64,000 bases of DNA, taken from a virus (taxonomy: Duplodnaviria > Heunggongvirae > Uroviricota > Caudoviricetes). Both the position numbers and the translations under genes were made by a program. Each line of letters begins with the position of its first letter. The stretch's first letter is position 1. Shown in pieces: positions 23,304 to 59,295 of this stretch. The DNA lies in IMG/VR virus record IMGVR_UViG_3300044259_000028, positions 18,283 through 82,282 of that record. One strand, written 5' to 3'. The notes under the pieces were generated by a model that saw only the letters and a list, made by a program, of their open reading frames with translations, had not been told where the DNA came from and searched no databases.

Positions 23304-23338
23304 TGGAACACCTCTAAAAAGGGTGTTCCTTTTTTTTT
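23304..23338 (+). terminator. Strong rho-independent terminator ending the late operon
   Basis: ggaacacc-tctaaaaag-ggtgttcc hairpin followed by T10. Confidence 0.8.
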
Positions 23339-23342
23339 TCCA

Positions 23343-23385
23343 TAAAAGAAAAGCCCCAACACATTTCAGTGTCAGGGCTAATGTT
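23343..23385 (-). terminator. Terminator for the leftward transcription unit
   Basis: On the minus strand: agccctgacactgaaatgtgttggggct hairpin followed by tttcttttat. Confidence 0.5.
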
Positions 23386-23559: not shown

Positions 23560-24033
23560 TTACTCACCTCCAAGCAGTTTCTTCAAATCAGTAAAAATTG
23601 TGCCTTTTTCAATAGCTTTTACAACAGCATCATCCTTAGCACGAGCTACGAAGAAAGCTTTCAAGTCTTTTGGCTTGTAGTTAGAAGCTTTACCAGCCGC
23701 CTGCACAGCCTCTTTGATTTCTCGCTCGATTGACTTGATATCGCCGATAATTTCCATACCATCTTCACTTTCCTCAATGTACTTCTTGAGTTCAGCTTGA
23801 GCTTCTTTCACCAATTCAGCCAGTTCTAACGCACGTTCATCACTATCCTTAAAGTCTTTCAAGATAAGTTTCTTTTTAATAAGATTGCGAATCATTGGTG
23901 CAATTTCTTGCGAATAACCCATCAATACAGCAGGATTAGGCTTAGGCTTATCCACCGAGTCAATTACAATAGTATTCAAATTATTCTTCTCCAAAGTATC
24001 CAATAAGTGCACCAACCGGGAAGATAGCAACAC
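23560..24033 (-). CDS. Hypothetical protein
   Basis: 157 aa ORF. The true start may be an internal Met, because the upstream part overlaps a small membrane ORF. Confidence 0.4.
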   Translation of the reverse strand: MLLSSRLVHLLDTLEKNNLNTIVIDSVDKPKPNPAVLMGYSQEIAPMIRNLIKKKLILKDFKDSDERALELAELVKEAQAELKKYIEESEDGMEIIGDIKSIEREIKEAVQAAGKASNYKPKDLKAFFVARAKDDAVVKAIEKGTIFTDLKKLLGGE

Positions 24034-24154
24034 CGATTACACGAATTAGTTTTTCAAATTGAGATTGAGGACGATTTTCCTTAATCAGTTTATAAATGTT
24101 TAGGCCGTAACCTAACCATGTAATGACACAAATAATTAGCAAAAATGCTATCAC
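23981..24154 (-). CDS. Small membrane protein (57 aa, GTG start)
   Basis: GGAGGAATAA then GTG. Translation VIAFLLIICVITWLGYGLNIY...VAIFPVGALIGYFGEE. Below the ORF-track size cutoff. Confidence 0.3.
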   Translation of the reverse strand: MIAFLLIICVITWLGYGLNIYKLIKENRPQSQFEKLIRVIGVAIFPVGALIGYFGEE

Positions 24155-24610
24155 TTATTCCTCCTTCAACCATAAAGTTGCATCAACTTCCCTAAAAACT
24201 TCTTGGAAGATTGCAGTTAGACGTTTAACGTCGAGATTACCAAGTCCACCACCGATCATAGGGAGATGAATAGGTTTATCTTTGAAATGCTTTACGACAG
24301 CTTGGCAGACAATGATAATCGCGTCATAGTCTGCATATTTGACGTTAGCATCTCGCCCGTAGAATTCCTGAGTAATCGCGTTGATGATTGTAGGACCTTC
24401 TACAGTTTGTACGGCAATAACTTGGCCGAGATGTAAGCCTTGTTCTTTCTGAACTTGTTTGTAGCCCTTATAAGCTTCTGGATAGTTCACTTTAACCAGT
24501 TTGGCAATACCACTGCCCATAACCCCTTGAGCATTACAGCCGTGGATGAATACGCAGTCTTGATCTTTGATCGCGTTAAAGATATCACCAACTTCAATTT
24601 TCAGAGTCAT
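24155..24610 (-). CDS. Macro domain protein (ADP-ribose binding or processing)
   Basis: GDIFNA...CVFIHGCNAQGVMGSGIAKLV and ...HLPMIGGGLGNLDV match macro-domain motifs. Confidence 0.75.
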   Translation of the reverse strand: MTLKIEVGDIFNAIKDQDCVFIHGCNAQGVMGSGIAKLVKVNYPEAYKGYKQVQKEQGLHLGQVIAVQTVEGPTIINAITQEFYGRDANVKYADYDAIIIVCQAVVKHFKDKPIHLPMIGGGLGNLDVKRLTAIFQEVFREVDATLWLKEE

Positions 24611-24846
24611 CGTATGCCTTTCATAAGTTTTGAGGAAGCTATATGTGCACGCATCAGTGCTTTATATTGTTTTCGGTTTCGGTAGTATCCGGGCGTATGC
24701 CACGATTCCGGCCAACCTTCACCACGAGCATGTCTGCCGTCCCATTTACCTAGGTAAAAACCTTCACGATCATTCCGACTAGCGTACATCTTTTCTCCTT
24801 TTAAATAACCAGCACCCATTGTATTCGAACAAGTGCTGGTTGTCAA
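24607..24846 (-). CDS. Hypothetical protein
   Basis: 79 aa, Trp/Arg-rich. ATGA overlap with the macro gene. Confidence 0.4.
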   Translation of the reverse strand: MTTSTCSNTMGAGYLKGEKMYASRNDREGFYLGKWDGRHARGEGWPESWHTPGYYRNRKQYKALMRAHIASSKLMKGIR

Positions 24847-24851
24847 TTACA

Positions 24852-26054
24852 TTACTTGTTCAGAACGTACCAGCGCTTGCCAGTCTGAGCAGTGATGCCT
24901 GCATCGTACACACGCTTACCACTTGCACGAGCAGCAGAACGTGATGCGAAGTAGATACGAGTTGGCACAGGAGTCAGTGGCGAAGGAGTAGGCTTGTTGG
25001 TAGGGGCAACTTTAGGCAGTTGCACCACAACAGGTTTAGCAGCTTTACCAGCCACAGGGCCATTCAGGTACGCCGTATCAGCAGCAGTGAATGGTACACC
25101 AATTTTCTCCCAGTACACAATACCAGTACCACCAACCAGTTTACGATTAATCGAAGTCGACTGGATGAAGATATCGTAGTTACCGTGATCGCCGGGATGC
25201 AGACGTGCATTACCAACAGTTGGCAGACCGATCATACTACGAGCATCCGCGCCTGCATACACTTTACCGTTCTTACGGTCACGAACCAGAATCAGTTTGG
25301 TGTCTTGAACACGTGCTTCGGTTTTGGTCAGTTGATAGAACGCACTACCTTTCAGAAGGGTTTTGCCGGTGCTCATCTCAACAAACGGTTTGATTTCAAC
25401 GCCACCCATCGTAGCAGGCACGACAAACAGTTTGATTTCTTTCGATACGTCAATCAGTGATTTGGTATCAACTGCGGTTGCATCAGCGTAGAATACCGAC
25501 GACGAACGTACACCAGTTGCACGGGTAGCGTAGAATTTATCCAGCGCTGCGGTAGTTGCTTGCGTCGAAGCTTCCACACCTTTTTCAGTTTGATCCCATT
25601 CTTGAACGTTGCCACGAGGGACGCCAAGGTCACGGGACAGACGCTCAGCATGACCACGAGGAACACGGAATACGAAAGTCCAACGGTCAGTTGCAATCAG
25701 TTCACGAATCTTACGAGCCAGCGTAGCTTGGTTGTATTTCTTCGAATTGTTTTCTTCACCGTCAGTCGTGATGGTCAGAAGGAAGTTAACTTTTGGATCG
25801 TTATAGTCTGGAACAGCTTCGAACATCTCGATCAGGTCACCGACAGCATCGTACATCGCCGTATAACCGACAGCGGACCACTGTTTCTTCGGATGCAGGA
25901 CATGAGGATTCGAATTGACGATTTCACGTTTGACAGTGTAGTCAAAGCCTACAACCGACACGATAGTATCTTGCATGTATTTGGTAGCTGCATCTTTGAC
26001 AGCACCGATATTTGCGTTATAGTCACGCAGGGCAGCAGAACGCAGACTCGCCAT
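24852..26054 (-). CDS. Hypothetical protein with vWA-like FLLTITTDGEENN segment
   Basis: 400 aa with a Pro-rich linker near the C-terminus. No SD before the ATG. Confidence 0.45.
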   Translation of the reverse strand: MASLRSAALRDYNANIGAVKDAATKYMQDTIVSVVGFDYTVKREIVNSNPHVLHPKKQWSAVGYTAMYDAVGDLIEMFEAVPDYNDPKVNFLLTITTDGEENNSKKYNQATLARKIRELIATDRWTFVFRVPRGHAERLSRDLGVPRGNVQEWDQTEKGVEASTQATTAALDKFYATRATGVRSSSVFYADATAVDTKSLIDVSKEIKLFVVPATMGGVEIKPFVEMSTGKTLLKGSAFYQLTKTEARVQDTKLILVRDRKNGKVYAGADARSMIGLPTVGNARLHPGDHGNYDIFIQSTSINRKLVGGTGIVYWEKIGVPFTAADTAYLNGPVAGKAAKPVVVQLPKVAPTNKPTPSPLTPVPTRIYFASRSAARASGKRVYDAGITAQTGKRWYVLNK

Positions 26055-26200
26055 AGACGACGAGTGATCGTTTGCGAAACCAACATAGTTCTTTGCTTCG
26101 ATATTTGCTTGAGTTATATTTTATTTCTCCTAATAGGTTATCTCTTTCGAGAGTTAATTGAAGCGTCATTATATAACAACGCTTCAGATTTTGCAAAAAT

Positions 26201-26410
26201 TTATTTCACAAAACTTTTCAAGGCCATCCAAATAGTTTTTCTTTGGATAAAGTTTCTGCCATCTGGTCCACAATGTCCTAGTTGCTGACGCTCTAAAGAA
26301 GCGAACCCGTATGCACTTCCATCGACAGGATCAAGTGTATGAGAACATTTAGAGTAAGTAGCGCCTACAAAGGAACCTTCGTACTTTTCACAATTTACAC
26401 AGAGTTTCAT
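26201..26410 (-). CDS. Small Cys-containing protein (zinc-ribbon-like)
   Basis: 69 aa, CVNCEK...CSH. Confidence 0.35.
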   Translation of the reverse strand: MKLCVNCEKYEGSFVGATYSKCSHTLDPVDGSAYGFASLERQQLGHCGPDGRNFIQRKTIWMALKSFVK

Positions 26411-28122
26411 TGCTTCAACCGTGCAACTACTTCTGCATAAGTAGTAGGATTGTACAGCTTACCATCTCGGAACACAACCTGCAATTCACCTTGTTCTTCT
26501 TGTACAGAATCCTGTTGATCGTACAGGACGTAATCATCACCCTCTTTCTCAACACGCAGCAAACCTTTCGCAGACTTCTTCACGCCGTTGTCAGTTGCAG
26601 GGTCTTTGAACAGTTCGCGTTGCTCACCATTTACGATACCGTAGGTAGCCTTAACAGCCATGCCGAAAGTATCACGAGTGATGTACTGATAGGTGTACGA
26701 ACCAATGCCGAACACAATATTACCAGCACTGAAACCTTTATCCATCAAGCGTTTCAGGATAGCTTCAGCACGTTCCAGTGTAATGCTGTCACCGTAGATC
26801 AGGCCCACACGCTGGTTCAGGGTCTTGAAACCTTTATCAGTAACAGTGCCACCGAAAATGTCCCACAGGCATTCTACAGCACCTTTCTGAGCAGGGGTTA
26901 GTTCCGCAGGTTCACAGGAGGAAATACTAGAACCGTCAATATAGTAATATTGTTTATCATAACGATTCCACTCAATGTAAGCCTCTACACGATAGATAAC
27001 ACCTTTTTGACGGAAGTAGCCAAAAGGACTCATATCTCCCATCTCACCGTGATCTGTACTAGAGCGGACTTCTTCTTCAAGTACTTCTTTTGCCCAGTCT
27101 TTCAAGTTATACTGTTCAGGAACGTCAACAATTTGCACAGTACCACAAATAATGTCAACAGGATCACCGCTATCAGGACGGAATACTACCTTAGCCTGAC
27201 CTAGTGCATTAACTTCACGAGCTAAGATTTCTTCTTTCAGAATGTTAGCAGTGTTAGTAATAACGTTCCAGAAGTCCCAAGTGTCAGAGACAATCGAAAC
27301 AATACCAGAAGGGTACAGTTCGGTAATCAGGCGACGGAAAGTTTGCACCTCGTCATCCTTACCACCCATACACATCACACTGTGTTCAGTCGCAGGAACA
27401 CTGCCACCTACCAGTTCCTTTTCAACATTAGCACCATAGTAAGTTTCCAGATAGTCAATCGCTGGTAACGTGTCAGTACCGTGACCGGCAGCGAACAGGT
27501 GACCAATAGTTTTGTACGCACCGCCGATACCTACCAGACCACGCATCGAGAAGTCGTGCAGCTGCCAGTCAGCGAATTGGATATCACTACCAGTAGCTTC
27601 TACATACTTATTCAGCAGGCGACGGTACTCATAGGCAATCGTTGCAATCGTAACTACCGGCCAGATTTCAGCCGACATAATAGTTTCGATGTAGTTCGTC
27701 AGCCAGAAGAATGCAGGGTGCGTGTTGTGGAAGGTTACGAACGGCACCTTGATATTTACACGAGTGCCTTCTGGCAACGCTTTAATACGCAGTGGCAGGT
27801 AACCCATATCATGTAGAGCAGCAATATGGTCAACACCGACAGCATCAGGGCCGAGGTAACAGTCCATGCGACGCTTGTATTCTGCAACAACAACATCCTT
27901 CGGGCGATTGAAGAAACCTTCGTTCCACGATTCGATCAGAAATTCCAGAACGAAACCTTGGATGCCAGCCACAACAACCTTATTGTCGTACAAGGAAGTC
28001 ATCTTTGCATGACCAGCCGAACGTGCAGTCAAATTGCTGTACACCAGTGTAGTACCTTCAGGATACTGAGGACCGTGACCGGTTTTGTAACCGTCAAGGG
28101 CCAGATGCGGTTTGATTTTCAT
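26407..28122 (-). CDS. Nicotinamide phosphoribosyltransferase-like (NadV/NAMPT family; NARP1 Namat candidate)
   Basis: Likely start MKIKPHLALDGYKTGHG (RBS GAAAGG). NAMPT family motifs throughout. 571 aa. Confidence 0.8.
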   Translation of the reverse strand: MKIKPHLALDGYKTGHGPQYPEGTTLVYSNLTARSAGHAKMTSLYDNKVVVAGIQGFVLEFLIESWNEGFFNRPKDVVVAEYKRRMDCYLGPDAVGVDHIAALHDMGYLPLRIKALPEGTRVNIKVPFVTFHNTHPAFFWLTNYIETIMSAEIWPVVTIATIAYEYRRLLNKYVEATGSDIQFADWQLHDFSMRGLVGIGGAYKTIGHLFAAGHGTDTLPAIDYLETYYGANVEKELVGGSVPATEHSVMCMGGKDDEVQTFRRLITELYPSGIVSIVSDTWDFWNVITNTANILKEEILAREVNALGQAKVVFRPDSGDPVDIICGTVQIVDVPEQYNLKDWAKEVLEEEVRSSTDHGEMGDMSPFGYFRQKGVIYRVEAYIEWNRYDKQYYYIDGSSISSCEPAELTPAQKGAVECLWDIFGGTVTDKGFKTLNQRVGLIYGDSITLERAEAILKRLMDKGFSAGNIVFGIGSYTYQYITRDTFGMAVKATYGIVNGEQRELFKDPATDNGVKKSAKGLLRVEKEGDDYVLYDQQDSVQEEQGELQVVFRDGKLYNPTTYAEVVARLKQ

Positions 28123-28123
28123 A

Positions 28124-28357
28124 TTAGAATACACCTTTCTCTTGTTTGATTTTACCCTCACTTTTAGAAAGTTTAAATGGGAAATTAAGATTAACACCGT
28201 CGAATCGTTGATATTTTCCTTCCCCAGTGACTGAAAGCAAATACCCTGCCTCCATTTCTACACCATCGATATGGGTAGCTTTCAAAGCAACACTACCGCC
28301 TAGAACTTCTAGATCGAAGGTGATTTTCTTTCCGTTAATCGTTGTAGTAACACTCAT
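28124..28357 (-). CDS. Hypothetical small protein
   Basis: 77 aa beta-rich ORF between the NAMPT-like and Prs-like genes. Confidence 0.4.
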   Translation of the reverse strand: MSVTTTINGKKITFDLEVLGGSVALKATHIDGVEMEAGYLLSVTGEGKYQRFDGVNLNFPFKLSKSEGKIKQEKGVF

Positions 28358-28369
28358 TTTCTTTTCTCC

Positions 28370-29242
28370 TTAAATAAGTTGGATCAATTTGTTATCCAGC
28401 AGTTCTGGTTTGCCCATAAAGTTGGATACGTAGATTTTATCTATGAAACCATCGAACACTTCTAGACCAGCCGAGAAGATGCCGTGGGTAACATACAGAC
28501 TAATCTTACGATCCTCGTTTGTAGGATAGTTTACATCAGCTTTAATGGCTTTTGCAAGCTCAATAAAGGTGCGCCCACCGTCGCAAATATCATCTACAAT
28601 CAAGAATTCCTTATGCGGAGTTACACCGAAAGGTGGGCGGATAGGATCAAGCAACGATGTGCGCTCAATCTTACCGGTTGCTACATTCCGAACCTTCGTT
28701 GCTCGGATTACGGAATCATACCCGAGTTGTTTAGCGAAGTCAAACACTTTCTTTTCTGCACCTGCATCCGGGGAAATAACCGCAGTGTTTTCAGGCTTGC
28801 AGTAGTTTCCGATATGCCGCGCACAGAATGTCAGTGGATGCTGGAATAAATTATTAATCAATGCAGCACCTACCGGCGAGTGGATATCATGACAGATAAC
28901 ACGTTCGAAGTCAAGGGCGTTAATAAAATCTGCAACAACTTTCACAGACAAACTTTCACCAACATTACATACACGATCTTGACGAGCATAAGGTAGATAT
29001 GGCATCTCTAAGACAAACTTGAATCGTGCATAGAACAGACGACGGGCAGCATCTACCACCAATGCCAGATCAAATAGATCACTGTTGTTCTTAAAGTTGA
29101 ATACGATGCGTGCACGTGGATTAATTTCGAAAGACTGTAGACCATCTGGTGCATCAATACGAATACACGATTCACCAGCAGGAAATACAGTCTTAGTAAT
29201 TTGGTATTCCTTACCACTAATGTAAAGTTTAATATTCTCCAT
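28370..29242 (-). CDS. Ribose-phosphate pyrophosphokinase-like (Prs family; NARP1 Adps candidate)
   Basis: PRPP-binding loop IVDDICDGGRTF and ...VTHGIFSAG match Prs family. Confidence 0.75.
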   Translation of the reverse strand: MENIKLYISGKEYQITKTVFPAGESCIRIDAPDGLQSFEINPRARIVFNFKNNSDLFDLALVVDAARRLFYARFKFVLEMPYLPYARQDRVCNVGESLSVKVVADFINALDFERVICHDIHSPVGAALINNLFQHPLTFCARHIGNYCKPENTAVISPDAGAEKKVFDFAKQLGYDSVIRATKVRNVATGKIERTSLLDPIRPPFGVTPHKEFLIVDDICDGGRTFIELAKAIKADVNYPTNEDRKISLYVTHGIFSAGLEVFDGFIDKIYVSNFMGKPELLDNKLIQLI

Positions 29243-29790
29243 TACGTTTCCTCTCGTTGAATTTCAAGCATACGACGAATACGCCACAATGCTAAATCTT
29301 TGTCAGTTGTGGAAGACTCAATACCAGTAGTTTCATATCCATCTTCATCATAAATTACAGTAGAGTCATGATGTTCTGCGTCGAAAGCACCCCTACCTCG
29401 CTCTTGAAACAAACATTCAAAACTATTCTCACCAAACAGTGCATCAAGGTCGGCATGATTGAAGTTATGAATGTCCCACAGACTTACACCATTCATAGCA
29501 ATAGTGTTACTATCGTTACCGAAATGTAGCCCTTGTGCATTGAAGAATGGATGCGAAGCTGCTAATCCTACCGAACAGTATAGTGTACCACATTCTCTTT
29601 CTGAACGAAATCGTGCAAGGTCGAGTAGATGCTCAGGATAGCTTGTAATAAGTTTTCGTAAGAATACAAGATTCTCAATAATTTTATCTTTGTTCATAGT
29701 TTCACCTTTTAAATATTTTTCACGCCATAGGCGATAAGTGTTCCATTGGTCAGTCATTGTAGCGTTTTGCAATTTCAATAGCTCGATCAA
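29242..29790 (-). CDS. Hypothetical protein
   Basis: 182 aa, ATGA coupling to the upstream gene. Confidence 0.4.
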   Translation of the reverse strand: MIELLKLQNATMTDQWNTYRLWREKYLKGETMNKDKIIENLVFLRKLITSYPEHLLDLARFRSERECGTLYCSVGLAASHPFFNAQGLHFGNDSNTIAMNGVSLWDIHNFNHADLDALFGENSFECLFQERGRGAFDAEHHDSTVIYDEDGYETTGIESSTTDKDLALWRIRRMLEIQREET

Positions 29791-30067
29791 AACCCTCCAT
29801 CACCTCTGCATGCGTATGAGAGTCATTATATGGGCCGATTGCCCCGAAAGTGTCAAAACCACATCTCAGGATTCTAGCAGATTTCTCAATAACAAAACGA
29901 TCACTGTTTACAGCTAGCAGTGCGCCATACGAACAGAAGCAACGTGCTAGGTCACTACTATACACCACTTCATTGCCTTGACCGTCTCGCGCACATGTGC
30001 CTTGGGTCCACTTGTCATGCGTGCTAATAAGCTGTTTAGCTTTGATAAGATGCTCAGAGGTTTTCAT
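29750..30067 (-). CDS. Hypothetical protein
   Basis: 105 aa. Confidence 0.35.
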   Translation of the reverse strand: MKTSEHLIKAKQLISTHDKWTQGTCARDGQGNEVVYSSDLARCFCSYGALLAVNSDRFVIEKSARILRCGFDTFGAIGPYNDSHTHAEVMEGFDRAIEIAKRYND

Positions 30068-30141
30068 TTAGTTTTCTCCTTTTCTTGATATTCTACACCA
30101 TCAACAGTAATCATTGCAACAATTTTCTTCATTCAATCCTC

Positions 30142-30615
30142 CTATTCATCCGGTAAAATAATTTCAACACCCTTTGCAATCAAGCTGTCGTAAAGATCAA
30201 CACTGATATTCAATGGGAACAGTATAACACGTTTTTCAAGCTTTAGCATCTGTTCCACCATATTTAATGAACCAGTGGATTTGCCATCCCAAATCACTAA
30301 CGCACAGTCACCTTCTTCCGCCATTTCAGCATTTCTCCAGTGGCCTGCTAGTGCATTGTACTTTTCGCCATTGTAGCGTGTTTTGACAACAGCGCCTTTA
30401 GCCTTAATATTACTCCATTTTGCAGGACGTTTCAATACCTTTAGACCATTACGTTCTGCGAATTCTTCACCTAGCTTGTCAGCACCTTCTGCCTCACCTG
30501 AAATTACTATAATGTCTTTACCATAATCCTTCCACAGGCCACTAAGGACAATGGCCTCACGTATAAGTGCATACGTTTTGATACTACGACTTCCTGCAAT
30601 GATTACTTTATACAT
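30142..30615 (-). CDS. SLOG-superfamily Rossmann-fold protein (DUF2493/YpsA/DprA-like)
   Basis: MYKVIIAGSRS...ISGEAEGADKLGEEFA pattern. Confidence 0.45.
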   Translation of the reverse strand: MYKVIIAGSRSIKTYALIREAIVLSGLWKDYGKDIIVISGEAEGADKLGEEFAERNGLKVLKRPAKWSNIKAKGAVVKTRYNGEKYNALAGHWRNAEMAEEGDCALVIWDGKSTGSLNMVEQMLKLEKRVILFPLNISVDLYDSLIAKGVEIILPDE

Positions 30616-31783: not shown

Positions 31784-32332
31784 TTATGTTCCGTGGCGTT
31801 TTGTGTAGCCACCTATTTCTTCTAGCTTACTAAATCGAAAATCGCAAGCCATCTTGAACGCTTCTTCCCCAAATTTCTTTAAAGAAAAAGCCCTCTTTCT
31901 CACTCTACCATTTTCACACCAGCAAGCACACCAATAACCTTGCCCACTCTTTAGATCGTAAGATACACCGCCCACTCCACTAGTGTTTGTAGAGAATAGT
32001 TTTTGATTTCTCATATTTCCTAATTGAGTTGTAAGATTTAGATTTGATAAAGCATTGTTTGTAGGTACACCGTCGATGTGGTCTACAACCTCATTATCAC
32101 TTAATTGCCCGTTGTGCATCTCAAAAATTACTCTATGAATCAAATATTGCTTTCCACCTTTTCCAACCACATAATAGCCTATGGTTTTAGAAAAAGAACC
32201 TGCCACACTTCCAGCCTTTATCTTTAAGATTGAGAGATTTCTCCCTGTATATACATCAACTTTCCATCTTAAGTAGGTAGGGCTAGACTCATCATAATAG
32301 AAGTAATCTGTCCAATCCATTAGTAGACCCAA
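31784..32332 (-). CDS. HNH homing endonuclease with AP2 DNA-binding domain
   Basis: VVDHIDGVPTNNALSNL (HNH_3) plus GVGGVSYDLKSGQGYWCACW...RVRKRAFS (AP2-like). Sits immediately downstream of nrdB. Confidence 0.65.
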   Translation of the reverse strand: MGLLMDWTDYFYYDESSPTYLRWKVDVYTGRNLSILKIKAGSVAGSFSKTIGYYVVGKGGKQYLIHRVIFEMHNGQLSDNEVVDHIDGVPTNNALSNLNLTTQLGNMRNQKLFSTNTSGVGGVSYDLKSGQGYWCACWCENGRVRKRAFSLKKFGEEAFKMACDFRFSKLEEIGGYTKRHGT

Positions 32333-44441: not shown

Positions 44442-45488
44442 TTACCAGTCACTCCCACTACTGGACGAATAATCCGAAGAGGACGAGGAGGAATAGTCAG
44501 AGCTACTGCTAGAGCTAGTCCAAGAATCATCACGGCTACTAGACGAGCTACTACGGCTGCTGGTCCACGAGTCATCATCACGAGACGAACTAGACGAGAA
44601 CGAAGCGTCTTTTACACGGTAATCGATCGCTGGCTCAGGTTCTACGTAACGCTCGGTAGGAGTGCTACGAGAGGTGCTGTAATCATCATAAGTACGATGG
44701 CTTCCATGCGAATGATTATGACGCAGAGCATCCGACAACATATTGCCAGCCACAACACCGCCAGCAACACTAGCAGCAGTACCAAGAGCACCCATACCTT
44801 GTTGCTGTTGTGGGGCTTGATGAACAACAGGGGTATGTTGATAAACTGGTTGAGGTGCTACATACTCTACATGTTCACGTTGTACAGGTTGTACATATGC
44901 ACGGCTTTCCGGTTCATCTTTAACAATGCGACGGTTAGAGGTATAAGCAATAGGGCGATAAACTTCAACAGCTTCAGGACGAGTAGAACGATAGATAAAG
45001 ATAAAGTACGCTACGCTACCGATACCACCGATAATCAGAATCCACCCAATAAATCCGATACCCGAGCTACTTTGTTGTGGATAGCTATTCTGTGCATAGC
45101 TTGTCTTAACAGGTTGCTCATAAGCTACAGGTTTAGTATCAACATAACGTTTAACAGGAGCGGAAGGACTACGCTCGATTTGAGCTACAACCTTACCGAA
45201 CAATGCAGAGCTAGAAACATCACCAGTTTTATCCAGCCGCACAACTTGTTTCAGTTCTTCATTTGCTGCTGCCTTATTCTTGTCTGCATTCAGCAGAATA
45301 TAGGCGTTCAGTAAGTGTGCACGAGCGCTGTTAGGATGGTCTTCCAGCACTTGACTAACCATGCTACGAGCACTTTGCATATCACCAGCAGCCAGTACTT
45401 TCTCAATCTGTTTAGGGGAAGGTGAGGCCATAGCTGCTACTGCCGCTACACTAAATACAATTGCTGCAATAATCTTCTTAAAGTTCAT
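44442..45488 (-). CDS. Secreted or membrane protein: signal peptide, TPR-like helical domain, TM, Pro/Gln-rich region, Ser-rich C-terminal tail
   Basis: 348 aa. ARAHLLNAYILL motif shared with the downstream paralog. SSSSSDYSSSSS tail. Confidence 0.5.
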   Translation of the reverse strand: MNFKKIIAAIVFSVAAVAAMASPSPKQIEKVLAAGDMQSARSMVSQVLEDHPNSARAHLLNAYILLNADKNKAAANEELKQVVRLDKTGDVSSSALFGKVVAQIERSPSAPVKRYVDTKPVAYEQPVKTSYAQNSYPQQSSSGIGFIGWILIIGGIGSVAYFIFIYRSTRPEAVEVYRPIAYTSNRRIVKDEPESRAYVQPVQREHVEYVAPQPVYQHTPVVHQAPQQQQGMGALGTAASVAGGVVAGNMLSDALRHNHSHGSHRTYDDYSTSRSTPTERYVEPEPAIDYRVKDASFSSSSSRDDDSWTSSRSSSSSSRDDSWTSSSSSSDYSSSSSSDYSSSSGSDW

Positions 45489-50132: not shown

Positions 50133-50669
50133 TCAATGAACTTTTCGTTTTGACAGAAGTTCGTAATAGCGGTTCAAAAACATCTGTTTTGCCACTTTAG
50201 CACTCCAAGGCTCAATTGTAAAGGCGTACTTCTCAACACCTTGTAGGCAATCCCAGTTCTGGCATTCCCTAGGCATAAGATGGAATACCTCAGTTGCTAG
50301 CATACGTGTGTCAACAATCTTTACTTCTGGCGACATTGGGAATTCAGTGCCAAAGCGATTTGCAATAGCTCGTTCAACACACTTTTCAACAGTTTTGTAG
50401 TCTGGTAGGAGCATCTTCAAAGGAGTCGACACATCGCCTAGCACACTTTCGGAAGCGTCATGCATCAGAAAATCTAGTGCCAGATGTTCAGAAATTTCAT
50501 ATGATCCTCGTACACAATGCTCTGCAACACTATAAGGCTTCTCCGAATGCCCAGTAAAGCGATTAATATGACTCAATCCATGTGCAATGTCGTCAATGGT
50601 CAGATTGGATTGTTCGGGGTTTAGGAAGTTGAAATAGCTCCCTGAGTACAACATAATTTCTGGCGTCAT
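50133..50669 (-). CDS. HD-domain phosphohydrolase (YfbR-like 5'-deoxynucleotidase type)
   Basis: IAHGLSHINRFTGHS...HD motif. AAGGAGAG RBS before ATG at 50669. The track's longer ORF reads through the A14 tract. Confidence 0.55.
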   Translation of the reverse strand: MTPEIMLYSGSYFNFLNPEQSNLTIDDIAHGLSHINRFTGHSEKPYSVAEHCVRGSYEISEHLALDFLMHDASESVLGDVSTPLKMLLPDYKTVEKCVERAIANRFGTEFPMSPEVKIVDTRMLATEVFHLMPRECQNWDCLQGVEKYAFTIEPWSAKVAKQMFLNRYYELLSKRKVH

Positions 50670-50682
50670 TTTCTCTCCTTGT

Positions 50683-50696
50683 AAAAAAAAAAAAAA
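50683..50696. repeat. A14 homopolymer tract (T14 on minus strand)
   Basis: Read directly. Lies upstream of the HD gene RBS. Confidence 0.9.
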
Positions 50697-50728
50697 TAGG
50701 AGGACGGACGAGCCATCCTCCAAGGTTG

Positions 50729-51940
50729 TTACTGAGCTACAGTTGCTTCGAAGAACTGCTTAGGACGGTTATCACCTTCCTTGTAGTTGTCCTCGTAGTA
50801 GCGCAGCATACGGATGTTGCACAGCACGTGGTCCAGATGCGACTCACCGGTTTCAGGGTCTTTGTCTTGACCAGCTTGCCATGCTGAGAGGTGACGCAGT
50901 GCACATGCCAGAGGGACATTCCAATCCATACCTTTCATCCAGTTCCATGCTTTGTACTTCTTCGCACCGTAGCCCCATACACGCGCTTCACCTAGCATAG
51001 TTTGTAGAGGTATCAGTGACAGATCAGGCTTGCCTGCATTGTAACGTGCACCGCTACCACGGGCATCGCTGTTAACGTCACCTACAGCAGCTTCCTGAGT
51101 AGCGAATACAGGTTTGACAACAATTTCCTGAGTGACTGTGCCACCAGCATCAGCTACAACATCATCCAGCATTTTTTCCAGACTGACAGTGGCAGGAGCC
51201 TCTTTCAGCTTGTTAATCTTGTAGGCAACAATCTCACAGTATGAGTAGTCGATGTTGTCGAAGTTTTTCAGACTACCGAATTTCAGGTCTTTGATACCAT
51301 CATCAACCCAAGTATCTTGGCTACCGTCACGCAACTTAACGGTGATGCTTACAACATCACTTAGATCAGGTGCATCATGATTAACTTCACGGTCAATCCA
51401 TTTTCCAACAGTCTTATCTTTTGATTGATCGGTAAGACGGTAGTGGGTGATGATATAGTCGCCGTCACCTCTGCCCCAAGCCCAAGTGCTCAATTTGGTA
51501 CGATTGCGAGCGACACCATTGCGGAAACGTACTTCACCAATAGGATCACCAATGTAGCCAGTAGGTTCCTTACCAGTGGTATTAGCAATCCAGCCAGATT
51601 TCTTCAGGCGACTTGCCTTACGTTTAGGGCCTTTCTGCTTATGGAAGTGTTCCGAGATTTCATATAAAGCATGCTGGAAGGCTGGCTTACACACCTCACC
51701 ATTGATAGGTAAAGCATAAGGCTCAGCACCAGAAGTTTGGTACATACGACAATCTTTGTCAACGTAGATGTACCCTTTCACTGGAGTATTCAATAGTTTA
51801 CGTGGTTGACCACTATTAGAAGCGATCCAACGGAAGCCCATCTTGAACATGGCTTTTTGCAGCTTATGGCTTTCTTCCAAACTGTCAACGTAATAATAAG
51901 TGTTTTTCAGGTCTTGAGGGATGCCGATAGTTTTAGTCAT
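50729..51940 (-). CDS. Hypothetical protein with conserved C-terminal module (KPDLSLIP...GYGAKKY...W)
   Basis: 403 aa. The C-terminal ~90 aa resemble a phage nucleotide diphosphohydrolase N-domain (unverified). Confidence 0.4.
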   Translation of the reverse strand: MTKTIGIPQDLKNTYYYVDSLEESHKLQKAMFKMGFRWIASNSGQPRKLLNTPVKGYIYVDKDCRMYQTSGAEPYALPINGEVCKPAFQHALYEISEHFHKQKGPKRKASRLKKSGWIANTTGKEPTGYIGDPIGEVRFRNGVARNRTKLSTWAWGRGDGDYIITHYRLTDQSKDKTVGKWIDREVNHDAPDLSDVVSITVKLRDGSQDTWVDDGIKDLKFGSLKNFDNIDYSYCEIVAYKINKLKEAPATVSLEKMLDDVVADAGGTVTQEIVVKPVFATQEAAVGDVNSDARGSGARYNAGKPDLSLIPLQTMLGEARVWGYGAKKYKAWNWMKGMDWNVPLACALRHLSAWQAGQDKDPETGESHLDHVLCNIRMLRYYEDNYKEGDNRPKQFFEATVAQ

Positions 51941-55142: not shown

Positions 55143-56219
55143 TTATACAAACTCTACCACAGCTTTCGCTGCATCTTGTTTTTGTGGAGCTACTGGAAAA
55201 TCTTCAGCATCTTCCTCGTAGTTTTCACCATCGATTGTCTTACGATATTGAATCCAACCTTTCAGGTTACCACTCCACATATTACCTTTACGATCCATGT
55301 GGCTAATACCCTTCTCCCAAGTTTCAGGTAGAAACGGAATGTTGCGCATATCATCGCTCCAAACGAATTTGGTAGTAGCGATAGGGGTAGCACAATGTTC
55401 CAGCGCACTTGCATGCTTCTTGTCAGCACCCACTAGACGGTCATAAAGCTCTAGGCATTTCTTAAGGCCATAGTCTTCATTACGGTAGGATACAGCAGCG
55501 CAACGAGCGCAACTAACCTTTATAGCATCTTCAAGTGAAATATCAGTAATTCTAAAATTATCGTCGATATCCCCTGTGATTCTACGCTCTTTGATGTGGA
55601 AATACTGGTTGTCATTGACATAAGTAACATCCATGTATGGCAAATGCCAATGCCCTGCCTTCAACACTTGAGGAACACTTGCATCCTTACTCTCACGCAT
55701 CACACGAGCAAGCTCACGCAGCGTAGGATCGGCAGCGTCATCGTCGCGCAGCCAGAAGAAGTTGTCAGTGCAAGTACCTGAGATGACAGTTTTCATCATC
55801 TGGAAGGGTTCAGTCAGACGGTTATACACTTGCTTGTGATAACCTGCTTCGAAGAATTTCTTAGAAGCTTCTACGGCTTGGTCACGGTAATCTTCCCATG
55901 CAATTTCAGGAGCAACACCAGCCTCTCCCCATGAACCCATAACAGGCATACCAAAATCCTCACCTTTATCCTGCATACCCGGATTAGCTTGACCAAAACG
56001 TACAGGCCGACCATTAAGTTGCTGGATCATCTTTGCGAATGGGATTGCACGACTACTGCTACTATTCTTCGACAGTGCACGATGCGTGTTTAGCTCAGCG
56101 AGGATGATACGAGGATATTCAATCACCCAAGTAATCATCCTTACACCAGCTTGTGAAATACTATCAGCTAGCACCCTAGCTTTGATGCCAGCTTTACCTT
56201 CATATGGTTTTAACTTCAA
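55143..56219 (-). CDS. thyX: Flavin-dependent thymidylate synthase ThyX-like
   Basis: ELNTHRALSKNSSSSRA matches the ThyX (R/T)HRxxSxNxxSxR signature as recalled from memory. 358 aa. Confidence 0.6.
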   Translation of the reverse strand: MKLKPYEGKAGIKARVLADSISQAGVRMITWVIEYPRIILAELNTHRALSKNSSSSRAIPFAKMIQQLNGRPVRFGQANPGMQDKGEDFGMPVMGSWGEAGVAPEIAWEDYRDQAVEASKKFFEAGYHKQVYNRLTEPFQMMKTVISGTCTDNFFWLRDDDAADPTLRELARVMRESKDASVPQVLKAGHWHLPYMDVTYVNDNQYFHIKERRITGDIDDNFRITDISLEDAIKVSCARCAAVSYRNEDYGLKKCLELYDRLVGADKKHASALEHCATPIATTKFVWSDDMRNIPFLPETWEKGISHMDRKGNMWSGNLKGWIQYRKTIDGENYEEDAEDFPVAPQKQDAAKAVVEFV

Positions 56220-58137: not shown

Positions 58138-59295
58138 TTAACCTTTTTTCAGAAGATATTCATTGCTGATAGCTTTGAACGAGAAGTCACAGCCACAGTT
58201 TTTGAACACCACGCCTTCACGCATCACACCAGCATTATCACCCGGACCCGAGGCGTATGTCAAGCATTTACTCACAACGTCATCTACACTCACTTCACCT
58301 TCTGGCAGGCCCAGTACATCACGCAGAGTGCCAGTAGCCAGAACGGTGACATGGTTAAGGCCAAGGATACCTACAGCCTCTTGACGGCTTGCAGGGCTAC
58401 TATACATCTGTTTATCGATGTTGAAAATATCAAAGATATGGAATTCCACATCTTTAACCTTCTCGTAGTTACCCTGAATGTCGGGAGCAACTACTTCTCC
58501 TTGCAAAGCATAGCTATCCTGTTCGAACTTCGCATACGCCTCCTTCATTGCAGCCAGTACAGGTGCAGCAGCTTTATGGAAATTGCTATCGCCAGTCAGA
58601 GGCAGCATGATGTTACGGCTGCAAATGCCATATACAGGCTCATCAGGCTTACGCACGAAGAAAGCCTTGACCTTCTCCCACAAGGACAGTCGCTGTTTGC
58701 TCAAAGCTTTCGCAGCTTTATAGTGTTCACTTTCAGGAGTCACAATAAACACAGTCATCGAGCTACCATCTTTCTTCATGGTCACTTCGAATTCTTCATC
58801 CAGTGCATTCACAACCATATGGCCGTAGTTCTGGATACGTTCCTGATCTGTCTTAGGAATAAACACAGGGAAGCGCTTGATACCTTGTGCCTGTACTTGA
58901 CGACCCGGAACAGGATTGTCAGGCATTTCCCACTTCTTCACACCCAGCACTTCGGTAACATCGTCACCTTCATTCAGCGAATCACCGTTAGGGACGATGG
59001 ATAATGGCAGTACCAGACCTTGCGAGATTTGTTTACGCAGTTTAATCGTTTTAAGGCGTTCGCCTTTGACACCTTCGAACTCTTTAGGTTCGTGACCTTC
59101 TTTAGTCAGGAACGGGGCTACCTCAGTAGGAACCCATGAGTCGATTTCGAAGTAACAAACCATGTCACCAATAGAGAATTCACTTTTCTTGACGACGACT
59201 GGCCAACCTTTAATCATTGCAACTTCGATCTTGTCAGCGCCAGCGATAGGCAGCAGATCACGAACTTTTTCAATAGTTACCAATTTACGAGTCAT
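58138..59295 (-). CDS. ATP-dependent RNA ligase-like protein (N-terminal tRNA-binding-type OB domain plus nucleotidyltransferase, DraRnl-like)
   Basis: N-terminal LVTIEKV..LPIAGADKIEVAMIKGWPVVVKK OB pattern. Motif I TMKKDGSS (KxDG). Confidence 0.45.
   Translation of the reverse strand: MTRKLVTIEKVRDLLPIAGADKIEVAMIKGWPVVVKKSEFSIGDMVCYFEIDSWVPTEVAPFLTKEGHEPKEFEGVKGERLKTIKLRKQISQGLVLPLSIVPNGDSLNEGDDVTEVLGVKKWEMPDNPVPGRQVQAQGIKRFPVFIPKTDQERIQNYGHMVVNALDEEFEVTMKKDGSSMTVFIVTPESEHYKAAKALSKQRLSLWEKVKAFFVRKPDEPVYGICSRNIMLPLTGDSNFHKAAAPVLAAMKEAYAKFEQDSYALQGEVVAPDIQGNYEKVKDVEFHIFDIFNIDKQMYSSPASRQEAVGILGLNHVTVLATGTLRDVLGLPEGEVSVDDVVSKCLTYASGPGDNAGVMREGVVFKNCGCDFSFKAISNEYLLKKG

What the first reader, a model, noticed from the sequence alone, without database searches (positions are those of the whole stretch)
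23560..30615. Promoter-distal accessory island of the leftward transcription unit, enriched in candidate counter-defence functions
The last ~7 kb of the leftward transcription unit hold several candidate counter-defence functions.
- A macro-domain protein (24155..24610), able to remove or bind ADP-ribose and 2'-phospho-ADPR-type signals or ADP-ribosyl marks. Candidates are DarT-type DNA ADP-ribosylation or ADPR-derived immune signals.
- A 400-aa vWA-like protein.
- The NAMPT-like and Prs-like pair.
- A SLOG/DUF2493-like nucleotide-binding protein (30142..30615).
- Several small unknown proteins.

A macro domain, NAD+ rebuilding and a SLOG domain on one strand is more than any one of them alone.
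Basis: inference. Interest (0 to 1): 0.6.

Follow-up and report, generated by a model that had tools for sequence, protein, structure and literature searches.

The report
Phage NAD+ rebuilding operon with phosphatase
The end of this uncultured phage's leftward operon carries a known three-enzyme kit (Adps, Namat and a macro-domain phosphatase) that rebuilds NAD+ after bacterial immune systems destroy it; the neighbouring vWA and SLOG genes show no specific link to counter-defence.

Summary
All the named domains are present on the minus strand between a terminator/promoter-like site at about 31,750 and a terminator at 23,379-23,352.

The interpretation needs narrowing.
- **NAMPT-like and Prs-like pair:** these are Namat and Adps of NAD+ reconstitution pathway 1 (NARP1). 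Namat matches the solved SpβL1 Namat at E = 3e-150 and carries the ADPR-PP selectivity motif GSYTYQYITRD. Adps is 37% identical to the validated Vibrio phage Gary Adps and keeps its essential lysine.
- **Macro protein:** it is best read as the NARP1-associated ADPR-1''-phosphate phosphatase Adpp, making the NARP1-AP pathway that counters aRES defence. It keeps the essential His and has Gln where DarG/TARG1 have their catalytic Lys. In relatives it occurs whenever Adps and Namat do. So macro plus NAD+ rebuilding is one known pathway, not two independent functions.
- **400-aa protein:** it is a real vWA/MIDAS protein. About 55 of 70 homologous viral loci have no NARP1 gene nearby.
- **SLOG (YAcAr) protein:** its homologues lie mostly beside replication and nucleotide-metabolism genes in other phages.

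Verdict: a new member of a known kind, with an unusual split gene order. Interest is modest.

The parts
28370..29242 (-). Adps: Prs-like ADP-ribose pyrophosphate synthetase, first enzyme of NARP1 (290 aa)
   Evidence: It is 37% identical over its full length to the validated Vibrio phage Gary Adps (E = 2e-41, 132 bits), against 55 bits to E. coli Prs. Lys183 in TKVRNVATG aligns with Gary Lys192, whose K192A mutant was used in the study. The DDICDGG loop lies at residues 217-223. It scores below every NCBIfam Prs cut-off (TIGR01251: 101.5 against 113). phrog_619 E = 1.4e-79.
26407..28122 (-). Namat: NAMPT-like nicotinamide ADP-ribose transferase, second enzyme of NARP1 (571 aa from the ATG at 28,122; the mechanical ORF extends to a GTG at 28,197)
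   Evidence: Matches PDB 9W5X/9W5W (SpβL1 Namat) at E = 3e-150, against 1.5e-57 for human NAMPT. Residues 474-484, GSYTYQYITRD, fit the Namat-specific motif GSXΦXΦXΦTRD (PMC12774641). His247 in ATEHSVMC corresponds to Gary Namat H243. It is 43% identical to Gary Namat (E = 5e-125). It has an insertion of about 80 aa at residues 332-410 relative to SpβL1 Namat.
24155..24610 (-). Macro-domain protein, probable Adpp (ADPR-1''-phosphate phosphatase) completing NARP1-AP (151 aa)
   Evidence: Pfam Macro E = 3.6e-5; phrog_335 'phosphatase' E = 1e-37. BLASTP gives 41% identity and E = 3e-20 to the NARP1-associated macro of Vibrio phage RYC, and 25% and E = 8e-8 to the biochemically tested Gary Adpp. 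His23 aligns with Gary His24, whose H24A mutant loses anti-aRES activity. Gln81 occupies the position of DarG's catalytic Lys80. In the 70-locus vWA survey the macro gene is present in all 13 loci that carry both Adps and Namat.
24852..26117 (-). vWA/MIDAS protein with a C-terminal half of unknown fold; function unknown, not specific to NARP1. The called ORF is 24,852-26,054 (400 aa); the frame is open and conserved up to a possible ATA start at 26,117 (421 aa).
30142..30615 (-). SLOG (YAcAr/DUF2493-type) nucleotide-binding protein; function unknown, weakly linked to NARP1 (157 aa)
   Evidence: PF10686 E = 7.4e-9; phrog_289 E = 3e-24. No PDB sequence match. Conserved upstream of Adps in most clade relatives. 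Outside the clade only 3 of 69 loci have Adps and Namat within 10 kb.
29750..30067 (-). DUF6197 protein (105 aa), unknown function
   Evidence: PF19698 E = 1.5e-10. Present in several relatives, duplicated in L014.
29242..29757 (-). 171-aa protein whose stop overlaps the Adps start; unknown function
   Evidence: No Pfam, PHROG, NCBIfam or PADLOC hit. Homologues lie directly upstream of Adps in some relatives, including two tandem paralogues in L016.
28124..28357 (-). 77-aa protein between Adps and Namat; unknown function
   Evidence: 45% identical to a 74-aa gene in the same position in L016/L022. No family hit.
26201..26410 (-). 69-aa Cys-rich protein overlapping the Namat stop; unknown function
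   Evidence: ORF list. No family hit.
23352..23379 (-). Terminator-like hairpin ending the leftward unit, convergent with a + strand hairpin at 23,305-23,329
   Evidence: 11-pair stem with 6 G-C pairs followed by a T-run. This is a consensus match only; the count of such sites in the region equals the shuffle expectation.

Best explanation
The core of the region is a NARP1-AP NAD+ reconstitution pathway, split by unrelated genes.

Proposed mechanism:
1. Host immune NADases (for example type I Thoeris, DSR, SIR2-HerA, SPARSA) cleave NAD+ into ADP-ribose (ADPR) and nicotinamide.
2. Adps (28,370-29,242) uses ATP to pyrophosphorylate ADPR to ADPR-PP.
3. Namat (26,407-28,122) joins ADPR-PP to nicotinamide and regenerates NAD+.
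4. When the host instead uses an aRES-type RES enzyme, the product is ADPR-1''-phosphate, which NARP1 cannot use. The macro protein (24,155-24,610) removes that phosphate and returns ADPR to the pathway.

Shown here by sequence: family membership, catalytic and specificity residues, and co-occurrence. Inferred from published work on homologues and not tested for these proteins: the enzyme activities and the defence systems countered.

The other genes have no demonstrated connection to this pathway: the vWA/MIDAS protein, SLOG, DUF6197 and the small ORFs. They are best treated as neighbouring phage genes of unknown function that are conserved in this lineage.
For: **Namat.**
- E = 3e-150 to the solved SpβL1 Namat (9W5X/9W5W), against 1.5e-57 to human NAMPT.
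- The Namat-specific selectivity motif is present as GSYTYQYITRD.
- The catalytic His is conserved, and identity to Gary Namat is 43%.

**Adps.**
- 37% identity and E = 2e-41 to Gary Adps, with Lys183 equivalent to Gary Lys192.
- It scores below all curated Prs cut-offs.
- No NadM/NMNAT-like gene was found in the 64-kb window at E < 0.1 by one tblastn query, so NARP2 is unlikely.

**Macro.**
- Its closest relatives are NARP1-associated macro proteins from Table S1 of the aRES paper (RYC 41%, E = 3e-20).
- The essential His is conserved, and Gln replaces the DarG/TARG1 catalytic Lys, as in all 7 Adpp-type sequences aligned.
- Across 70 vWA-anchored viral loci, the macro gene is present in all 13 loci with both Adps and Namat. 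It also occurs in L021 (Adps but no Namat) and in L049 (neither).
- The same Adps-Namat-vWA-Macro order holds in all 10 sufficiently long clade loci of a second survey. L170, an unrelated lineage, has Adps-Namat-Adpp contiguous.

**Published function of homologues.** NARP1: bioRxiv 10.1101/2024.02.11.579819. NARP1-AP: bioRxiv 10.64898/2026.01.28.702374.
Against: - No biochemistry exists for these proteins.
- The macro gene lies three genes beyond Namat (69-aa ORF, vWA gene, 79-aa ORF). This is outside the two-gene neighbourhood used to define NARP1-AP.
- The macro protein is only 25% identical to the one tested Adpp. It scores higher against DarG macrodomains (PDB 5M3I E = 4e-10; PADLOC DarG E = 4e-16; NCBIfam DarG 49 bits) than against yeast Poa1p (E = 5e-6).
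- In another phage lineage, related macro genes sit beside RNA ligase and PNKP genes without a complete NARP1 (L021, L049).
- Co-occurrence within one clade partly reflects shared ancestry.
Confidence: 0.8

Rival explanations
1. The macro protein is an ADP-ribosyl hydrolase that reverses a host ADP-ribosylation attack. The target would be DarT-type thymidine ADP-ribosylation of DNA, or ADP-ribosylated RNA or protein. On this reading it merely neighbours NARP1.
For: The best solved-structure and curated-model matches are DarG macrodomains: 5M3I E = 4e-10, 5M31 E = 4.8e-6, NCBIfam antitoxin_DarG E = 4.7e-13, PADLOC DarG E = 4.3e-16. The ADPR-binding residues (Asn26, Gly-rich loops) are conserved.
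Against: The catalytic Lys80 of TaqDarG, equivalent to TARG1 Lys84 and abolishing activity when mutated to Ala (PMC5179494), is Gln81 here. It is also Gln in all 7 NARP1-associated Adpp-type sequences aligned. The position of DarG Asn19 is His, as in Adpp and Poa1p. The NCBIfam score of 49 bits is far below the DarG cut-off of 250. The gene is present in every locus with both Adps and Namat in the surveys.
Confidence: 0.12
2. The macro protein clears ADPR-1''-phosphate (or the cyclic form) produced during phage RNA repair or ligation, as yeast Poa1p does in tRNA splicing. On this reading it does not serve immune evasion.
For: In a different phage lineage, related macro genes lie beside PHA02142-type RNA ligase and PNKP genes. 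L049 has Rnl-193aa-Macro-vWA. L021 has vWA-Macro-Metallophos-Rnl-x-PNKP. The window also encodes such an RNA ligase at 58,138-59,295.
Against: In the window the ligase lies 34 kb from the macro gene. No PNKP homologue was found by tblastn, and no Tpt1/KptA-type domain appeared among the ORFs scanned against Pfam. In this clade the macro gene tracks Adps and Namat, not the ligase.
Confidence: 0.06
3. The whole block is one larger NAD+/ADPR-centred counter-defence system. The vWA/MIDAS protein and the SLOG protein would be functional partners, for example binding or processing ADPR-derived immune signals and feeding ADPR to NARP1, as RyDEP does.
For: The vWA gene sits inside the cluster in every clade relative, and in L014 it lies between Adps and Namat. 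In a second lineage (PhoH-Clp neighbours), vWA is flanked variably by Adps, Macro or SLOG (L021, L049, L039/L045). The YpsA-clade SLOG proteins have been linked computationally to NAD/ADPR and phosphoribosyltransferases (PMC6459960). RyDEP shows that NARP1 neighbours can feed it ADPR (PMC13232231).
Against: About 55 of 70 vWA loci and 66 of 69 non-clade SLOG loci have no Adps/Namat pair within 10 kb. SLOG homologues in 425 cultured phage records occur mostly in phage types whose records carry no NARP1 annotation near the hit. No anti-defence, defence or RyR domain was detected in these proteins, and there is no aRad1 homologue. No paper held in the library mentions both NARP1 and von Willebrand domains.
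Confidence: 0.12

Closest known systems
NARP1-AP of Vibrio phage Gary (Adps-Adpp-Namat; Osterman et al., bioRxiv 10.64898/2026.01.28.702374)
   Same: All three enzyme families are present on one strand. Identities are Adps 37%, Namat 43% and macro 25%. The residues mutated in that study are conserved: Adps Lys, Namat His and Adpp His.
   Different: Gary's three genes are contiguous, with Adpp in the middle. Here the order is Adps-77aa-Namat-69aa-vWA-79aa-Macro, so the macro gene lies three genes past Namat. It would be missed by the published two-gene neighbourhood rule. The macro is closer to the RYC/1.063.O-type NARP1-associated macros, which have not been tested biochemically.
NARP1 of Bacillus phage SpβL1 and E. 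coli phage Bas63 (Osterman et al. 2024; Namat structures 9W5W/9W5X)
   Same: The Namat fold, catalytic core and selectivity-clamp helix motif match (GSFTYQYNTRD in SpβL1, GSYTYQYITRD here). A Prs-like Adps lies upstream.
   Different: The window Namat has an insertion of about 80 residues between residues 331 and 411 that SpβL1 Namat lacks. Extra genes separate Adps from Namat.
DarG antitoxin macrodomain / TARG1 (ALC1-like macrodomains)
   Same: These are the best sequence matches among solved structures and curated models, with the same ADPR-binding loops.
   Different: The catalytic lysine is absent (Gln81). There is no DarT-binding C-terminal domain (151 aa against about 340 aa). The score is far below the family cut-off.
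Yeast Poa1p ADPR-1''-phosphate phosphatase (PDB 6LFQ)
   Same: Macro fold with the His-x-x-Asn motif. It is the functional model that the aRES paper uses for Adpp.
   Different: The sequence match is weak (E about 5e-6, N-terminal half only). The biological context is different (tRNA splicing).
Bacterial Prs2-NadV(-NadM) clusters, e.g. Acinetobacter (bacterial NARP1 homologues, PMC12774641)
   Same: The Acinetobacter 'NadV' is the most similar annotated protein (62% identity). It carries the Namat motif GSFTYNYLTRD and follows a Prs-like gene with a DDICDGG loop.
   Different: It is chromosomal and followed by a NadM-type NMNAT/Nudix gene. The window holds no such gene.

Membership tests
Namat (NARP1 nicotinamide ADP-ribose transferase) | Closer to validated Namat than to PRPP-using NAMPT | tested here: met
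   E = 3e-150 (505 bits) to SpβL1 Namat 9W5X, against 1.5e-57 (199 bits) to human NAMPT. 43% identity to Gary Namat.
Namat (NARP1 nicotinamide ADP-ribose transferase) | Selectivity-clamp helix motif GSXΦ1XΦ2XΦ3TRD with aromatic X residues (PMC12774641) | tested here: met
   GSYTYQYITRD at residues 474-484: X = Tyr, Tyr, Tyr; Φ1 = Thr; Φ2 = Gln; Φ3 = Ile.
Namat (NARP1 nicotinamide ADP-ribose transferase) | Catalytic histidine (Gary H243) and an Adps gene in the neighbourhood | tested here: met
   His247 in ATEHSVMC. Adps lies 1 gene upstream.
Namat (NARP1 nicotinamide ADP-ribose transferase) | Uses ADPR-PP rather than PRPP to make NAD+ | not testable with these tools
   Needs an enzyme assay.
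Adps (ADPR-PP synthetase, Prs-like) | Falls with phage Adps rather than canonical Prs | tested here: met
   132 bits and 37% identity to Gary Adps, against 55 bits to E. coli Prs. Below all NCBIfam Prs cut-offs. No full phylogeny was built.
Adps (ADPR-PP synthetase, Prs-like) | Catalytic lysine of the β-hairpin (Gary K192, SpβL1 K162, K185 in the structural study) and a conserved DDxxD PP-loop region | tested here: met
   Lys183 aligns with Gary Lys192. DDICDGG lies at residues 217-223.
Adps (ADPR-PP synthetase, Prs-like) | A Namat homologue within 10 genes (true of 97% of the Adps clade) | tested here: met
   Namat is the second gene downstream.
Adpp (NARP1-associated macro-domain ADPR-1''-phosphate phosphatase; NARP1-AP) | Macro-domain protein (PF01661, PF14519 or PF20016) within two genes of the NARP1 genes | tested here: not met
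   The macro domain is present (PF01661 above the gathering score). But the gene is separated from Namat by three ORFs (69 aa, vWA, 79 aa). The positional criterion fails as written, although co-occurrence is complete.
Adpp (NARP1-associated macro-domain ADPR-1''-phosphate phosphatase; NARP1-AP) | Sequence homology to listed NARP1-associated macro proteins, with the essential His (Gary H24) conserved | tested here: met
   E = 3e-20 to the RYC macro and E = 8e-8 to Gary Adpp. His23 aligns with Gary His24.
Adpp (NARP1-associated macro-domain ADPR-1''-phosphate phosphatase; NARP1-AP) | Dephosphorylates ADPR-1''-phosphate and, together with NARP1, rescues the phage from aRES | not testable with these tools
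   Needs LC-MS enzyme assays and plaque assays.
DarG-type DNA ADP-ribosyl glycohydrolase | Catalytic lysine (TaqDarG K80 / TARG1 K84) | tested here: not met
   Gln81 at the aligned position.
DarG-type DNA ADP-ribosyl glycohydrolase | Full-length architecture with a C-terminal DarT-binding domain, scoring above the curated cut-off | tested here: not met
   151 aa, macro domain only. NCBIfam NF048014 gives 49 bits against a cut-off of 250.
vWA / MIDAS domain proteins | Rossmann-like vWA fold | tested here: met
   [not shown]
vWA / MIDAS domain proteins | Complete MIDAS motif DxSxS...T...D | tested here: inconclusive
   D17-H-S19-S-S21, T86 and D119 are all encoded and are invariant or nearly so in homologues. 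But DxSxS lies upstream of the first ATG/GTG/TTG. It is translated only if an ATA (26,117) or ATC start is used.
SLOG superfamily, YAcAr (DUF2493) family | Match to PF10686 above the gathering score, with the Gly-rich loops of the SLOG Rossmannoid fold | tested here: met
   35.7 bits against a cut-off of 28.2. IIAGSRS, SGxAxGxD and WDGKSTGS are conserved in alignment A5. The ligand is unknown.

The most novel reading that the evidence does not exclude
The widespread phage vWA/MIDAS protein is a so-far unrecognised partner of ADPR/NAD+-centred counter-defence. It has more than 1,200 metagenomic homologues, and its confidently modelled C-terminal half has no solved structural relative. It sits inside the NARP1-AP cluster throughout this clade. 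In a second lineage it is flanked variably by Adps, macro or SLOG genes. It might, for example, capture a host NADase or an ADP-ribosylated target through its metal-ion site, with the SLOG protein acting on an ADPR-derived signal.
Probability: 0.12. Interest if true: 0.6.

Novelty: new member of a known kind. Interest (0 to 1): 0.3.

Why it matters
The result extends the NARP1-AP counter-defence pathway to an uncultured clade of phages with genomes of about 80-92 kb. It also shows that the phosphatase gene can be separated from Adps and Namat by unrelated genes. Surveys that look only two genes away will therefore under-count NARP1-AP, reported as 15% of NARP1 phages.

The result predicts that hosts of this clade use both ADPR-producing NADases and aRES-type RES enzymes.

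It also marks two abundant phage protein families, the vWA protein with an unknown C-terminal fold and the YAcAr SLOG protein, as uncharacterised. On present evidence they should not be annotated as counter-defence genes.

Tried and rejected
- **Nucleotide search.** Megablast of the region against 50,697 phage records found nothing. The closest cultured phage by DNA polymerase is Pseudomonas phage vB_PsaM_M1, at only 44.6% identity.
- **aRad1 search.** An HMM built from the seven published aRad1 aRES inhibitors found no hit in the six-frame translation of the window (best E = 2.7).
- **Small ORFs.** Pfam at E ≤ 5, PHROGs, NCBIfam and PADLOC gave nothing for the small ORFs (58, 79, 69, 77, 171, 94 and 150 aa). 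The 157-aa protein gave only weak chance-level matches.
- **RyDEP/RyR domain.** No Pfam RyR domain hit in any island protein.
- **NARP2 and NARP3.** No NadM-like gene was found in the window. NARP3 is a NadR plus PnuC system and is not relevant here.
- **vWA as a NARP1 component.** Rejected as the main reading after the 70-locus survey and after inspecting phages Cr30, BUCT-ZZ01 and Phabba, whose homologues have no NARP1 neighbours.
- **SLOG as a NARP1 component.** Rejected as the main reading after the 80-locus survey.
- **Literature.** Searches for YAcAr/DUF2493, DUF6197 and NARP1 plus von Willebrand returned no relevant functional study.
- **Composition.** The composition profile shows no anomaly marking a recent insertion.

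Full report
**Setting.** The window is a phage genome. Structural, tail and lysis genes run rightward to 23,279. A long leftward unit of replication and nucleotide-metabolism genes ends at 23,384.
- Convergent terminator-like hairpins lie at 23,305-23,329 (+) and 23,379-23,352 (-).
- A minus-strand hairpin overlapping a near-consensus promoter-like site lies at 31,777-31,743. These are consensus matches only, and their number does not exceed the shuffle expectation.
- The same sequence occurs, 100% identical over 8.5 kb, in JGI and Logan metagenome assemblies.
- No cultured phage is close. Megablast found nothing, and the best DNA polymerase match is 44.6%.

**Observation.**
- Macro: PF01661; phrog_335 'phosphatase' E = 1e-37.
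- NAMPT-like: PF04095; phrog_448 E = 7.5e-193.
- Prs-like: PF13793; phrog_619 E = 1.4e-79.
- SLOG/YAcAr: PF10686 E = 7.4e-9.

**The NAMPT-like/Prs-like pair is NARP1.** Published work shows that phage Prs-like Adps makes ADPR-pyrophosphate from ADPR and ATP. NAMPT-like Namat then joins it to nicotinamide and rebuilds NAD+ after immune NADases have cleaved it (bioRxiv 10.1101/2024.02.11.579819).
- *Namat.*
  - It matches the crystal-structure sequence of SpβL1 Namat (9W5X/9W5W) at E = 3e-150, against 1.5e-57 for human NAMPT.
  - It carries GSYTYQYITRD. This fits the Namat-specific adenine-clamp motif GSXΦXΦXΦTRD that distinguishes Namat from NAMPT (PMC12774641).
  - It is 43% identical to the validated Vibrio phage Gary Namat, with the catalytic His conserved.
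- *Adps.*
  - It is 37% identical (E = 2e-41) to Gary Adps, with Lys183 aligned to Gary's Lys192.
  - It scores only 55 bits against E. coli Prs and falls below all curated Prs cut-offs.
- *NARP2.* No NMNAT/NadM-like gene was found in the window, which argues against NARP2.

**The macro protein is best explained as Adpp.** A 2026 preprint reports that RES-domain defence proteins (aRES) cleave NAD+ to nicotinamide and ADPR-1''-phosphate, which NARP1 cannot use. It also reports that 15% of NARP1 phages carry an associated macro-domain phosphatase, Adpp, that restores ADPR. The pathway is called NARP1-AP.

Evidence for this assignment:
- The supplementary sequences let me compare directly. The window macro is 41% identical (E = 3e-20) to the NARP1-associated macro of Vibrio phage RYC. 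It is 25% identical (E = 8e-8) to the biochemically tested Gary Adpp.
- In a joint alignment, His23 matches Gary His24, whose H24A mutant was built for the anti-aRES assay.
- In the same alignment, Gln81 sits where all seven Adpp-type proteins have Gln and where DarG has its catalytic Lys80 (K80A is inactive; PMC5179494).

Points against it:
- The best solved-structure and curated-model hits are DarG macrodomains. This is expected for related macrodomains, but it keeps an ADP-ribosyl-hydrolase role alive as a rival.
- The gene lies three ORFs beyond Namat, so it fails the paper's two-gene neighbourhood rule.

**Comparative evidence.** Two surveys of IMG/VR were anchored on the vWA protein (70 loci) and on the SLOG protein (80 loci). 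They recovered 11-12 relatives each that share the window's flanking tail/lysis and replication genes.
- All of these relatives that extend far enough carry Adps, Namat, vWA and Macro in that order. Most have SLOG about 1-2 kb upstream of Adps.
- Two further metagenomic relatives show rearrangements. L014 has vWA between Adps and Namat. L016 has a homing endonuclease between Adps and Namat.
- In the vWA survey, the macro gene occurred in all 13 loci with both Adps and Namat. It also occurred in L021 (Adps-like but no Namat) and in L049 (neither).

**The vWA protein.**
- It has more than 1,200 metagenomic homologues.
- About 55 of the 70 surveyed loci have no NARP1 gene within 10 kb, and many of these come from unrelated and jumbo phages.
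- Homologues in phages Cr30, BUCT-ZZ01 and Phabba also have no NARP1 neighbours. It is therefore not a NARP1-specific component.
- Its MIDAS DxSxS motif (DHSSS) and first β-strand are encoded in frame upstream of the first ATG, and they match relatives exactly (KNYVGFANDHSSSM).
- There is no ATG, GTG or TTG upstream in frame. An ATA lies 9 nt after an AGGAG. The sequence is identical in four assemblies.

**The SLOG protein.**
- Homologues occur in 425 cultured phage records of many types.
- Of 69 surveyed loci outside this clade, only three (L126, L154, L170) have Adps and Namat within 10 kb.
- More often the gene adjoins ribonucleotide reductase or a 5'-3' exonuclease homologue.
- A link between YpsA-clade SLOG proteins and NAD/ADPR has been suggested computationally (PMC6459960), but nothing here tests it.

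**Rivals.** Three alternatives remain possible at low probability.
- *DarG-like hydrolase:* argued against by the missing catalytic Lys.
- *RNA-repair by-product phosphatase:* supported only by macro-RNA ligase-PNKP neighbourhoods in another lineage. The window's own RNA ligase lies 34 kb away.
- *Enlarged system including vWA and SLOG:* argued against by the locus surveys.

**Verdict.** The finding is real, and the counter-defence reading is right for three of the genes. But they form one already described pathway, NARP1-AP. The claimed enrichment beyond it is not supported. The novelty is a new member with an unusual interrupted gene order. Interest is modest at 0.3. There is a low-probability, more interesting possibility that the vWA and SLOG proteins take part.

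Noticed in passing
window 26,055-26,117 (-), upstream of the vWA gene: The conserved first β-strand and the MIDAS DxSxS motif (KNYVGFANDHSSS) are encoded in frame upstream of the first ATG, with no ATG/GTG/TTG available. An ATA at 26,117 lies 9 nt after an AGGAG, and a TTGCAA-17-TATAAT site lies at 26,196-26,168. The sequence is identical in four independent assemblies. This suggests a non-canonical start codon, or a recently lost start.
   Followed up: partly
[not shown]
   Followed up: partly
window 26,890-27,130 (-), Namat residues about 332-410: An insertion of about 80 residues relative to the solved SpβL1 Namat. A shorter insertion sits at the same place in Gary Namat. Its role is unknown.
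   Followed up: no
window 50,133-51,940 (-) and 55,143-56,219 (-): A 403-aa protein has a dATP/dGTP diphosphohydrolase N-terminal domain (PF18909, E = 7e-28). Next to it is a YfbR-like HD 5'-deoxynucleotidase, and nearby is a weak ThyX-like protein. Together they hint at dNTP-pool editing or a modified base. No PurZ-like gene was seen among the ORFs scanned.
   Followed up: partly
window 58,138-59,295 (-); L049 7,744-11,302; L021 8,920-15,015: The window encodes a PHA02142-type RNA ligase. In another phage lineage, related macro genes sit directly beside this ligase type and a PNKP gene, next to the vWA gene. L021 has an Adps-like gene but no Namat within the locus.
   Followed up: partly
window 31,784-32,332 (-); L016 7,552-8,082; L025, L029, L102: An HNH-AP2 homing endonuclease sits beside the ribonucleotide reductase genes. 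Relatives carry homologous copies inside the NARP1 cluster, between Adps and Namat or between vWA and Macro. This indicates active endonuclease mobility in this region.
   Followed up: no
L003 (CAKLQF020000015.1, labelled Acinetobacter phage MD-2021a) 7,138-10,355: This 'phage' record is bacterial chromosome (transporters, regulators). Its Prs2-NadV-NadM cluster holds the most similar annotated homologue of the window Namat (62% identity). That NadV carries the Namat signature GSFTYNYLTRD, so the cluster looks like a bacterial NARP1.
   Followed up: partly
window 41,535-42,326 (-) and 44,442-45,488 (-): An SPFH/Band 7 protein and a TPR/DUF2076 protein are encoded in the early/middle region. 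Both are unusual phage cargo of unknown role.
   Followed up: no
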